DNA of 37,388 bases from a virus. Taxonomy: Duplodnaviria; Heunggongvirae; Uroviricota; Caudoviricetes. The stretch is from the IMG/VR virus record IMGVR_UViG_2778261448_000003; one strand, given 5' to 3'. This document shows, one piece after another, positions 20,352 to 20,661 of the stretch. The notes under the pieces were generated by a model that was not told where the DNA came from, searched no databases, and was given only the letters and a program-made list of their open reading frames with translations. A program made the translations under genes and the position numbers. The number at the start of each line of letters is the position of its first letter. Positions within the stretch are counted from its first letter, which is position 1.

Positions 20352-20426
20352 TGGAGCGGGTAGCGGGAATCGAACCCGCATCATCAGCTTGGAAGGCTAA
20401 GGTAATAGCCATTATACGATACCCGC
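20352..20426 (-). tRNA. tRNA-Gly (anticodon UCC)
   Basis: Minus strand GCGGGTATCGTATAATGGCTATTACCTTAGCCTTCCAAGCTGATGATGCGGGTTCGATTCCCGCTACCCGCTCCA; cloverleaf intact, anticodon loop CTTCCAA. Confidence 0.85.
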
Positions 20427-20429
20427 ATA

Positions 20430-20505
20430 TGGTGCCGACTACCGGAATCGAACTAGTGACCTACTGATTACAAGTCAGTTGCTCTACCTACTGAGCTAAG
20501 TCGGC
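20430..20505 (-). tRNA. tRNA-Thr (anticodon UGU)
   Basis: Minus strand GCCGACTTAGCTCAGTAGGTAGAGCAACTGACTTGTAATCAGTAGGTC...TTCGATTCCGGTAGTCGGCACCA; anticodon loop CTTGTAA. Confidence 0.8.
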
Positions 20506-20507
20506 AC

Positions 20508-20584
20508 TGGACCGCCACCGAGGACTCGAACCTCGCACACTCAACTTAAAGGGTTAACACTCTTTCTTGGTGAACTGGTGGCGG
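20508..20584 (-). tRNA. Atypical tRNA-like gene X (isotype uncertain; possible UUU anticodon with C33)
   Basis: CCGCCAC...CGAGG-TTCGAGT-CCTCG-GTGGCGG-T-CCA: perfect acceptor and T-arm, but D-loop lacks GG and anticodon loop is CCTTTAA; paralogous to tRNA-like Y. Confidence 0.45.
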
Positions 20585-20585
20585 T

Positions 20586-20661
20586 TGGTGGCCCTTGCTG
20601 GATTCGAACCAGCGACCTGGCGATTATGAGTCGCTCGCTCTCACCACTGAGCTAAAGGGCC
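20586..20661 (-). tRNA. tRNA-Ile2-like (anticodon CAU, ileX/ileZ type)
   Basis: GGCCCTTTAGCTCAGTGGTGAGAGCGAGCGACTCATAATCGCCAGGTCGCTGGTTCGAATCCAGCAAGGGCCACCA; closer to E. coli ileX than to elongator Met. Confidence 0.75.

What the first reader, a model, noticed from the sequence alone, without database searches (positions are those of the whole stretch)
20352..20661. Tightly packed prophage tRNA cluster including an atypical tRNA-like gene
Four genes are separated by only 1-3 nt: Ile2 (CAU), tRNA-like X, Thr (UGU), Gly (UCC). Thr and Gly resemble E. coli thrU and glyT but carry compensatory stem changes, which suggests diverged functional copies. X, and its IS-split paralogue Y, have perfect acceptor and T-arms but start with C1:G72, have a D-loop without GG (X), and lack U33 in any candidate anticodon loop; possible anticodons are UUU for X and GUA or ACG for Y. 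They may be degenerate pseudo-tRNAs or non-canonical tRNA-like RNAs.
Basis: partly seen in the sequence, partly recalled or inferred. Interest (0 to 1): 0.55.

Follow-up and report, generated by a model that had tools for sequence, protein, structure and literature searches.

The report
Sub-threshold prophage tRNA-Lys-like gene in tRNA operon
The odd "gene X" is a diverged copy of a tRNA gene that many E. coli prophages carry next to three normal tRNA genes; it keeps a perfect cloverleaf but has lost several universal tRNA bases, so it is probably still cut out of the transcript but is a poor or dead decoder.

Summary
On the minus strand, 20661-20352 carries Ile2(CAU), X, Thr(UGU) and Gly(UCC), with spacers of 1, 2 and 3 nt. 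ARAGORN, Rfam and PGAP call the three normal tRNAs but miss X.

X (20584-20508) is not an orphan. It is about 91% identical to a gene annotated tRNA-Lys(UUU) in the same slot of Ile-Lys-Thr-Gly clusters, found in about 10% of complete E. coli genomes. It is 76% identical to argN of Stx phages. C1:G72, U73 and the C33 loop (CCUUUAA) are traits of that Lys allele group, not of X alone.

X adds seven transitions. Four lie in stems, and all four keep or repair pairing (P about 0.03 by simulation). Two remove universal bases (U8C, G18A). Rfam tRNA scores fall from 53 (a U33 Lys allele) to 44 (the common C33 allele) to 29.3 (X; threshold 29).

Y is an 82-nt paralogue split by an IS186-like element inserted in its T-arm. 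Y-type relatives conserve the acceptor, D and T arms but have no common anticodon arm.

Best reading: X is a weakly constrained, processing-competent but poorly decoding pseudo-tRNA of the argN family. A nuclease-evading tRNA-Lys is not excluded. Interest is modest.

The parts
20671..20698 (-). Promoter-like site of the tRNA operon (TTGATT-16 nt-TATTAT); the -10 element ends 9 nt before the first tRNA
   Evidence: Consensus scan. The TTATTAT block is invariant in five otherwise divergent upstream regions. Function is inferred, not shown.
20586..20661 (-). tRNA-Ile2 (anticodon CAU; ileZ type), CCA encoded
   Evidence: ARAGORN. Rfam 72.6 bits. Annotated tRNA-Ile or ileZ in matching records.
20508..20584 (-). 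X: 77-nt tRNA-Lys(UUU)-like gene with C33, C8 and no G18; a diverged allele of the slot-2 (argN-family) prophage tRNA
   Evidence: Rfam tRNA 29.3 bits when searched alone. ARAGORN calls Lys(ttt) only at -ps95. 91% identical to annotated tRNA-Lys and 76% to argN. Not annotated by PGAP.
20430..20505 (-). tRNA-Thr(UGU), one base different from E. coli K-12 thrU
20352..20426 (-). tRNA-Gly(UCC), three bases different from K-12 glyT, including one compensatory pair (U6:A67)
19972..19989 (-). Strong intrinsic-terminator-like hairpin plus a T run, the first strong one after the tRNA operon
19767..19790 (-). Second terminator-like hairpin, about 60 nt upstream of Y
19639..19706 (-). Y, 5' part (acceptor 5' strand, D-arm, variable middle, T-stem 5' strand and T-loop; ends in one copy of the target duplication)
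   Evidence: Intact Y in other genomes.
18300..19638 (.). IS186-like insertion sequence (1339 bp), inserted in the T-arm of Y at a GGGG-N7-CCCC site
   Evidence: Inverted ends CATAAGCGCT(A/G)ACTTAAGGGTTG and the 11-bp duplication GGTTCGAGTCC. ORF 18349-19467 is an IS4-family transposase, 133.6 bits. The name IS186 and its target preference come from my own knowledge.
18275..18299 (-). Y, 3' part (second copy of the duplication, T-stem 3' strand, acceptor 3' strand, U, CCA)
18229..18248 (-). Terminator-like hairpin just after Y

Best explanation
X is the slot-2 gene of a four-gene prophage tRNA operon, Ile2(CAU) / slot 2 / Thr(UGU) / Gly(UCC). The operon lies between the Q antiterminator region and the lysis genes of a lambdoid prophage.

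Slot 2 belongs to the argN family of lambdoid-prophage tRNAs. This family shares one acceptor/D/T scaffold, but its anticodon arm has changed repeatedly: Arg UCG, Arg UCU, Lys UUU, and 82-nt forms. X derives from the common Lys(UUU) form, which already carries C33. X has acquired seven more transitions.

Inferred mechanism: the four genes are transcribed together from their own promoter. With spacers of only 1-3 nt, RNase P cuts at each 5' end are expected to separate the genes. The cut at the 5' end of X would then also free the 3' end of tRNA-Ile2. For this, X needs only its acceptor stem, T-arm and encoded CCA, and those are exactly the parts that stay perfect.

The decoding machinery is degraded: C33 is inherited, and U8C and G18A are specific to X. 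X is therefore most likely a poorly decoding or non-decoding pseudo-tRNA that is still processed.

Shown here: homology, anatomy, the score decline, the substitution pattern and the relative rates. Inferred: transcription, RNase P processing and loss of decoding.
For: Homology and position:
- The gene sits in the same slot, immediately after Ile2, as annotated tRNA-Lys genes and argN. Alignment is; ARAGORN calls Lys, Arg UCU and Arg UCG for the relatives.
- The family evolves as a cloverleaf: 98.8% of cells are paired and 6 pairs show changes on both sides, against 29-53% paired in the slid controls.

Degradation series:
- Rfam tRNA bits are 53.2 (U33 Lys allele), 44.4 (common C33 allele) and 29.3 (X). 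The neighbouring tRNAs score 62-74.
- X is missed by ARAGORN at default settings and by PGAP.
- Positions 8-9 are the most conserved part of the family (variability 0.008), so C8 in X is exceptional.

Relative rates, in the same divergent patch compared with strain CV839-06:
- X 7/77, Ile 1/76, Thr 1/76, Gly 4/75 and non-coding flanks 15/93.
- X is faster than the three tRNAs (Fisher P = 0.023). It is not distinguishable from the flanks (P = 0.25).

Residual structural constraint:
- All four stem substitutions keep or repair pairing. 21/21 paired after 7 random transitions occurs in 3% of simulations.
- The acceptor stem, T-arm, T-loop and CCA are intact.

Folding and codon use:
- For X the cloverleaf is 11 kcal/mol above the MFE, which keeps only the acceptor and T arms.
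- The other three anticodons read codons that this prophage uses about twice as often as I recall for K-12 (ATA, ACA, GGA). Extra Lys decoding is not obviously needed.
Against: - There is no expression, processing or charging data.
- The common C33 allele is strongly conserved and otherwise well formed. 55 of 85 sampled Ile-slot2-Thr-Gly clusters carry one identical sequence. That argues the Lys form has a function, and X may retain part of it.
- The structure-preserving pattern in X (P about 0.03) shows it is not decaying freely.
- The rate comparisons rest on small counts.
- RNAfold often fails on genuine tRNAs. The argN and JS316-type alleles also miss the cloverleaf.
- The processing argument does not explain Y, which stands alone between terminators.
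Confidence: 0.6

Rival explanations
1. X, and the common C33 allele it derives from, is a working but non-canonical tRNA-Lys(UUU). It lets the phage keep translating when host tRNA-Lys is destroyed by anticodon-arm nucleases such as PARIS AriB or PrrC/RloC, as phage T5 tRNA-Lys does.
For: [quoted passage not shown] AriB needs U36-A-A-U-C|A41, and U39->A or U16->C block or impair cleavage (PMC12409363; PMC11464382).
- X and its allele group have UAAGUU at positions 36-41 and C16 in the common allele, so they lack those determinants.
- A fully canonical U33 tRNA-Lys also occurs in slot 2 (L007, 53.2 bits). This shows that Lys decoding has been selected in this slot, although I recall that E. coli has several tRNA-Lys(UUU) genes and no other Lys isoacceptor.
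- The C33 allele is the commonest and is highly conserved.
- The stems of X are kept intact.
Against: - From my own knowledge, U33, U8 and G18 are almost universal in elongator tRNAs. X lacks all three.
- X has U73 where, as I recall, E. coli LysRS prefers A73.
- The neighbouring Thr(UGU) has the host anticodon arm, including UAAUCA and the paired CNG motif cut by P2 Old (PMC12445682). The cluster is therefore not a coherent resistant set.
- No cleavage or rescue data exist for any allele of this family.
Confidence: 0.2
2. X is a neutral relic: a dead tRNA gene with no remaining role, carried along because it lies between useful tRNA genes.
For: - Its divergence (9.1%) is not statistically different from the non-coding flanks (16%).
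- It is sub-threshold for all three gene finders.
- Other slot-2 alleles carry plainly disruptive lesions: a D-stem deletion in 12 loci, an anticodon-arm deletion, and ruined T-loops.
- Slot 2 has 59 alleles in 112 loci.
Against: - All 21 pairs are standard, and one family-wide A.C mismatch has been repaired (P about 0.03 under random transitions).
- The T-loop, acceptor stem and CCA are untouched.
- With 1-2 nt spacers, the RNA must be removed somehow for Ile2 and Thr to mature.
Confidence: 0.13
3. X and Y are non-decoding tRNA-like RNAs with a function of their own. For example, they could be decoys for enzymes or toxins that recognise the tRNA elbow and acceptor end.
For: - Six Y-type sequences share the acceptor, D and T arms, with double changes at three pairs, but have no common anticodon arm.
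- Across slot-2 alleles the acceptor stem and CCA are the most conserved parts, and the anticodon arm and variable loop are the most variable.
- Y stands alone between terminators, so it is not merely an operon spacer.
Against: - X has lost G18, which weakens the elbow that such a decoy would need.
- Y is inactivated by an insertion sequence here with no visible consequence.
- Some Y-type alleles have destroyed T-loops.
- Conservation of the shared arms could come from gene conversion among paralogues (argN and argO both score high on one model).
- No partner protein has been identified.
Confidence: 0.07

Closest known systems
Prophage tRNA-Lys(UUU) of Ile-Lys-Thr-Gly clusters in E. coli/Shigella lambdoid prophages (as annotated by PGAP, e.g. 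strains DS26-1 and CV839-06; phage PhiR47_1)
   Same: - Same slot and same neighbours.
- 90-92% identity, same length, same anticodon UUU.
- Same C33 loop CCUUUAA, C1:G72, U73 and encoded CCA.
   Different: - X has seven transitions: U8C, C11U, U16C, G18A, C25U, C28U, C63U.
- X scores 29.3 bits against 44.4.
- X is not called by PGAP or by ARAGORN at default settings.
argN (tRNA-Arg, UCG) of the ileZ-argN-argO cluster upstream of stx in Stx-converting phages
   Same: - Second gene after ileZ, 77 nt.
- Same acceptor, D-arm and T-arm scaffold; 76% identity.
- Sits in the region between Q and the lysis genes.
   Different: - argN has U33 and anticodon UCG, and is followed by argO rather than Thr-Gly.
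- X has C33 and UUU, and lacks U8 and G18.
Phage T5 tRNA-Lys(UUU), which neutralises PARIS (PMC11464382, PMC12409363)
   Same: - Phage-borne tRNA with anticodon UUU.
- Its anticodon stem differs from the host's at the positions AriB reads (39-41), and it has C16.
   Different: - T5 tRNA-Lys is an experimentally functional, cleavage-resistant tRNA.
- X is unrelated to it in sequence, is untested, and lacks U8, G18 and U33.
E. coli thrU and glyT (host thrU-tyrU-glyT-thrT operon)
   Same: The window's Thr and Gly genes are 75/76 and 72/75 identical to them. In many prophages they are 100% identical.
   Different: In the prophage the two genes are 3 nt apart, with no tyrU between them, and they follow Ile2 and slot 2.

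Membership tests
Canonical bacterial elongator tRNA (Rfam RF00005) | Four-helix cloverleaf with standard pairs | tested here: met
   21/21 standard pairs; no non-canonical marks in the Rfam alignment; ARAGORN drawing.
Canonical bacterial elongator tRNA (Rfam RF00005) | Covariance-model score at or above the gathering threshold (29 bits) | tested here: inconclusive
   29.3 bits when 93 nt are searched alone. Not reported in the window-wide or 601-nt scans. Neighbours score 62-74 bits.
Canonical bacterial elongator tRNA (Rfam RF00005) | Universal tertiary nucleotides U8 and G18-G19 | tested here: not met
   C8, and D-loop ACCAAGAAA with A at the G18 position.
Canonical bacterial elongator tRNA (Rfam RF00005) | U33 before the anticodon, purine at position 37 | tested here: not met
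   The loop is C32 C33 U34 U35 U36 A37 A38. C33 is shared with the whole Lys allele group. A37 is present.
Canonical bacterial elongator tRNA (Rfam RF00005) | T-loop UUCRANY, with G53:C61 closing it, and a 3' CCA | tested here: met
   CGAGG UUCGAGU CCUCG, then GUGGCGG U CCA.
Canonical bacterial elongator tRNA (Rfam RF00005) | Mature, aminoacylated, ribosome-active RNA | not testable with these tools
   Needs tRNA-seq, acid gels or charging assays.
argN-family slot-2 tRNA of lambdoid-prophage tRNA clusters | Lies directly (1-10 nt) downstream of the Ile2(CAU) gene in the Q-to-lysis region | tested here: met
   1-nt spacer after Ile2. Q, RusA and DUF968 lie upstream; holin and endolysin lie downstream in the identical prophage.
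argN-family slot-2 tRNA of lambdoid-prophage tRNA clusters | Shared scaffold: CCGYCAY acceptor, GCUC/GAGC D-stem, CGRGG-UUCGAGU-CCYCG T-arm, U73, CCA | tested here: met
   Alignments A1 and A5. 92.3 bits on the family model, although X was in the seed alignment. blastn identity is 76-92%.
argN-family slot-2 tRNA of lambdoid-prophage tRNA clusters | Arginine anticodon (UCG or UCU) | tested here: not met
   The anticodon is UUU. X belongs to the Lys-type allele group of the family, not to argN proper.
E. coli-type tRNA-Lys(UUU) | Anticodon UUU with A37 | tested here: met
E. coli-type tRNA-Lys(UUU) | Discriminator A73 (a LysRS identity element, from my own knowledge) | tested here: not met
   U73 in X and in the whole family.
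Nuclease-evading phage tRNA (T5 tRNA-Lys type) | Lacks the sequence read by the nuclease (AriB: U36AAUCA41 and U16) | tested here: met
   X has U36AAGUU41. The determinants are taken from PMC12409363. This is a sequence check only.
Nuclease-evading phage tRNA (T5 tRNA-Lys type) | Resists cleavage and restores translation or phage growth | not testable with these tools
   Needs cleavage and rescue assays.
IS186 insertion (for the element that splits Y) | IS4-family transposase, about 23-bp inverted ends, target duplication at a GGGG-N6/7-CCCC site | tested here: met
   Transposase 133.6 bits. Ends and 11-bp duplication. The target GGGGTTCGAGTCCCC is the T-arm of Y. The consensus target is from my own knowledge.

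The most novel reading that the evidence does not exclude
Slot 2 of these prophage tRNA clusters is an arms-race locus. One tRNA scaffold has its anticodon arm repeatedly rewritten: Arg UCG, Arg UCU, Lys UUU with U33, Lys UUU with C33, an 8-nt loop, and 82-nt forms with no stable anticodon arm. The purpose would be to escape or soak up host and rival-phage tRNA nucleases such as PARIS AriB, PrrC/RloC, colicins and P2 Old. On this reading, the C33 tRNA-Lys carried by about 10% of E. coli genomes, and perhaps X, would be a nuclease-resistant replacement or decoy rather than a decaying gene.
Probability: 0.15. Interest if true: 0.65.

Novelty: new member of a known kind. Interest (0 to 1): 0.33.

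Why it matters
As it stands, the result is mainly about annotation. A tRNA-family gene present in porcine ETEC/STEC prophages is invisible to the standard finders. Its close relatives, annotated tRNA-Lys in hundreds of genomes, carry C33, which is almost unheard of in elongator tRNAs.

If the common C33 allele turns out to be charged and resistant to tRNA nucleases, temperate lambdoid prophages would join T5-like phages as carriers of counter-defence tRNAs. That would also explain why a phage carries a tRNA for an abundant codon.

If it is inert, slot 2 is a convenient natural series for asking two questions: which parts of a tRNA are needed only for operon processing, and which for decoding.

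Tried and rejected
- **Rfam YrlA hit.** The match (25.3 bits, 20451-20562) spans the T-arm of X and the D-arm of Thr. It is far below the 69-bit threshold, so I rejected it as a composite of two tRNA modules.
- **ARAGORN's Val(aac) fold for Y**. I rejected it for three reasons. The natural Y variant with G->A would break its C31:G39 pair, and ARAGORN then switches to Tyr(ata). It also sacrifices the family D-arm. And six Y-type sequences share no anticodon arm at all.
- **RNAfold MFE as a test of tRNA-likeness.** It is weak, because genuine family members also miss the cloverleaf. I used only the 11 kcal/mol gap for X, and only as a side remark.
- **Literature.** Searches for ileZ/argN/argO and for prophage Lys-Thr-Gly clusters found nothing relevant in the held library. 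My guessed PMC id for the 933W genome paper returned no held paper. The P2-Old paper has no held supplement listing its phage tRNA library.
- **Taxonomic spread.** The scan of one genome per species found the UCAAC/GUUGA-stem allele only in the E. coli and Shigella flexneri representatives. It added no diversity for testing C33.
- **Chance or artefact.** Rejected on homology.

Full report
**What is in the window**

The four genes lie on the minus strand. ARAGORN and Rfam find three ordinary tRNAs:
- CAU at 20661-20586, 72.6 bits.
- Thr UGU at 20505-20430, 71.0 bits.
- Gly UCC at 20426-20352, 62.3 bits.

The CAU gene is annotated tRNA-Ile or ileZ in identical or related records. The 77 nt between Ile and Thr (20584-20508) is X. 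The spacers are 1, 2 and 3 nt.

X folds into a cloverleaf with 21 standard pairs, a normal T-loop and an encoded UCCA end. It also has C1:G72, C8, the D-loop ACCAAGAAA and the anticodon loop CCUUUAA (C33, UUU).

The gene finders treat X as follows:
- ARAGORN at default settings misses it.
- Rfam misses it in the whole-window scan and in a 601-nt scan.
- PGAP does not annotate it in genomes with the identical sequence.
- Searched alone, it reaches 29.3 bits against Rfam's 29-bit threshold.
- ARAGORN calls it tRNA-Lys(ttt) as soon as its thresholds are lowered to 95%.

**Setting**

The identical region in strain HCP5S3_I2 is a lambdoid prophage next to potD. The gene order there is DUF968-RusA-Q, a TrmB pseudogene, an AraC-like gene, the tRNAs, then TerB, holins, endolysin, terminase and HK97-type head genes.

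A promoter-like site (TTGATT-16-TATTAT) ends 9 nt before Ile2. Its TTATTAT block is invariant in otherwise divergent upstream regions. Strong terminator-like hairpins follow at 19989-19972 and 19790-19767.

The long ORFs of the window use ATA, ACA, GGA and AGA at about 10, 16, 13 and 7 per thousand. That is roughly twice the K-12 averages as I remember them. It fits the usual codon-supply reading for Ile2, Thr(UGU), Gly(UCC) and the Arg alleles, but not for a Lys tRNA.

**What X is related to**

blastn of X finds relatives in 1795 of 5426 complete E. coli genomes. The best hits fall into bands of 28 records at 99% or more, 539 at 90-95%, 499 at 80-90% and 734 at 60-80%.
- The 90-95% class lies in the same slot of Ile-X-Thr-Gly clusters and is annotated tRNA-Lys by PGAP. 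ARAGORN calls it Lys(ttt).
- The roughly 76% class is argN, the tRNA-Arg(UCG) of the ileZ-argN-argO cluster upstream of stx.
- Intermediate alleles are tRNA-Arg(UCU).

X is therefore an allele of the argN-family gene that occupies slot 2.

A hand-picked alignment of 12 alleles supports the cloverleaf by covariation. 98.8% of cells are paired and six pairs show changes on both sides, against 29-53% paired when partners are slid.

C1:G72 and U73 are family traits. C33 is a trait of the Lys allele group. Among sampled alleles with the UCAAC/GUUGA stem, the loops read CCUUUAA 106 times, CUUCUAA 6, CUUUUAU 2, and UUUCUAA, ACUUUAA and UCUUUAA once each.

A canonical U33 Lys allele also exists (L007) and scores 53.2 bits. 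The common C33 allele scores 44.4 and X scores 29.3.

**What is specific to X**

Against the common allele, X has seven transitions:

| Change | Effect |
|---|---|
| U8C | removes a base that I know as near-universal in tRNAs |
| G18A | removes a base that I know as near-universal in tRNAs |
| U16C | D-loop change |
| C11U | stem pair becomes G.U |
| C25U | stem pair becomes G.U |
| C28U | stem pair becomes G.U |
| C63U | repairs the family's A51.C63 mismatch to A:U |

Seven random transitions leave all 21 pairs standard in only 3% of simulations. The helices are therefore still under some constraint.

Positions 8-9 are the most conserved of the whole family in an Ile-anchored sample (variability 0.008). 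C8 is therefore unusual.

I compared the window with strain CV839-06. The tRNA cluster lies in a divergent patch that ends near 20274; downstream of that the two are almost identical. Within the patch the differences are:

| Segment | Differences |
|---|---|
| Ile | 1/76 |
| Thr | 1/76 |
| Gly | 4/75 |
| X | 7/77 |
| Non-coding flanks | 15/93 |

X evolves faster than the three real tRNAs (P = 0.023). It cannot be told apart from the flanks (P = 0.25), while the real tRNAs are far slower than the flanks (P = 4e-5).

The X allele is rare (2-3 of about 85-200 sampled loci). In the complete genomes it is almost confined to porcine ETEC/STEC strains.

**The neighbours**

The window's Thr is K-12 thrU with one change (C51U, U.G). 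Its Gly is glyT with C6U plus G67A (a compensatory pair) and C28U. In most prophages both genes are identical to the host genes. They look like captured host genes kept under purifying selection.

The Thr anticodon arm is the host's. It includes the UAAUCA read by AriB and the paired CNG motif cut by P2 Old (PMC12409363, PMC12445682).

**Y**

Y is split by a 1339-bp element with IS186-type ends, an IS4-family transposase and an 11-bp duplication. The element inserted into GGGG-TTCGAGT-CCCC, which is the T-arm of Y.

The rejoined Y is 82 nt. It exists intact and unannotated in 17 complete genomes and gets no Rfam tRNA hit. It shares its acceptor and T-arm with the canonical slot-2 Lys allele (82% identity).

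The same 82-nt type can itself occupy slot 2, as in L107 and many Stx-type clusters.

RNAalifold on six Y-type sequences keeps the acceptor, D and T arms, with changes on both sides at three pairs. It finds no shared anticodon arm. ARAGORN's assignments for them (Val aac, Tyr ata, Leu cag) disagree with each other. Y-type genes therefore do not look like decoders.

**The slot as a whole**

In an Ile-anchored IMG/VR sample, slot 2 has 59 distinct alleles in 112 loci.
- The acceptor stem, positions 8-9 and the CCA end are the most conserved.
- The anticodon arm and variable loop are the most variable.
- Insertions cluster after position 39.
- Some alleles are plainly broken: a D-stem deletion in 12 loci, an anticodon-arm deletion, and T-loops turned into GCGGGU.

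**Interpretation**

I rate one reading as most likely (0.6). X is a weakly constrained allele of a prophage tRNA gene. It is still transcribed with its neighbours and excised, but it decodes poorly or not at all.

The mechanistic step is inferred from what I know of E. coli polycistronic tRNA processing. With spacers of 1-3 nt there is no room for RNase E sites, so RNase P cuts at each 5' end must separate the genes. The cut at X would also release the 3' end of tRNA-Ile2. That requires only the acceptor/T minihelix and CCA of X, and these are the parts that remain perfect.

The rivals are:
- A working, nuclease-evading tRNA-Lys (0.2). X and its group lack the AriB determinants, and a canonical Lys allele shows that Lys decoding has been selected in this slot. 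However, X lacks U8, G18 and U33, and nothing has been tested.
- A fully neutral relic (0.13).
- A non-decoding tRNA-like RNA with its own function (0.07).

**Novelty**

The cluster and the family are known and widely annotated. X is an unannotated, diverged member. I found no paper in the held library that describes the Ile-Lys-Thr-Gly cluster, the C33 Lys allele or the variability of slot 2, but that library lacks most of the older Stx-phage literature. I rate the finding a new member of a known kind, with modest interest.

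Noticed in passing
window 24614-24784 (-), with ORF 24461-24616 (-): A full-length sok antisense RNA (Rfam 101.3 bits) lies next to a 51-aa hok-type ORF, annotated hokD in the identical prophage. This is a type I toxin-antitoxin module.
   Followed up: partly
window 32281-32332 (+): A complete DicF sRNA (Rfam 75 bits). In the identical prophage, dicB, ydfC and ydfB lie nearby, giving a Qin-like immunity/division-inhibition region.
   Followed up: partly
window 20688-21401 (-): The ORF directly upstream of the tRNA operon is an AraC-family regulator most like YdeO/GadX (110 and 91 bits, both below the family cut-offs). 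It may be a prophage-borne regulator of host acid-resistance-type genes.
   Followed up: partly
window 19757-20229 (-): Between Gly and Y there are a long near-perfect hairpin (20229-20138) and two terminator-bounded units. One gives a weak STnc100-like match (19960-20155, 27.5 bits, threshold 47). These may be prophage small RNAs.
   Followed up: partly
L006:2507-2587 (E. coli O157:H7 EC4115 chromosome, yahL-yahM intergenic region): An unannotated 81-nt Y-type tRNA-like sequence (about 75% identical to Y, T-loop UUCGAGG) sits in the core chromosome. Most of the roughly 470 genomes in the 60-80% identity band of that search match here. It looks like a relic of the same family outside any obvious prophage.
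   Followed up: partly
L096:3553-3630 (IMG/VR contig): A slot-2 Lys-type allele has an 8-nt anticodon loop, CUUUUUAU. ARAGORN reports 'tRNA-??? (tttt)'. It could be a T-run slip or a frameshift-suppressor-like tRNA.
   Followed up: no
L107:648-723 (IMG/VR contig): A prophage Thr(UGU) variant has the anticodon stem GAUGA/UCAUC. It lacks the paired CNG motif that P2 Old cuts in host thrU (PMC12445682), and it sits next to a Y-type gene in slot 2. It is a candidate Old-resistant tRNA-Thr in a lambdoid prophage.
   Followed up: no
window 20274-20700: Compared with strain CV839-06, divergence is concentrated in a roughly 400-bp patch that covers the tRNA cluster and its immediate flanks. The sequence is almost identical downstream of 20274. 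This suggests a recombination boundary just after the tRNA operon.
   Followed up: partly
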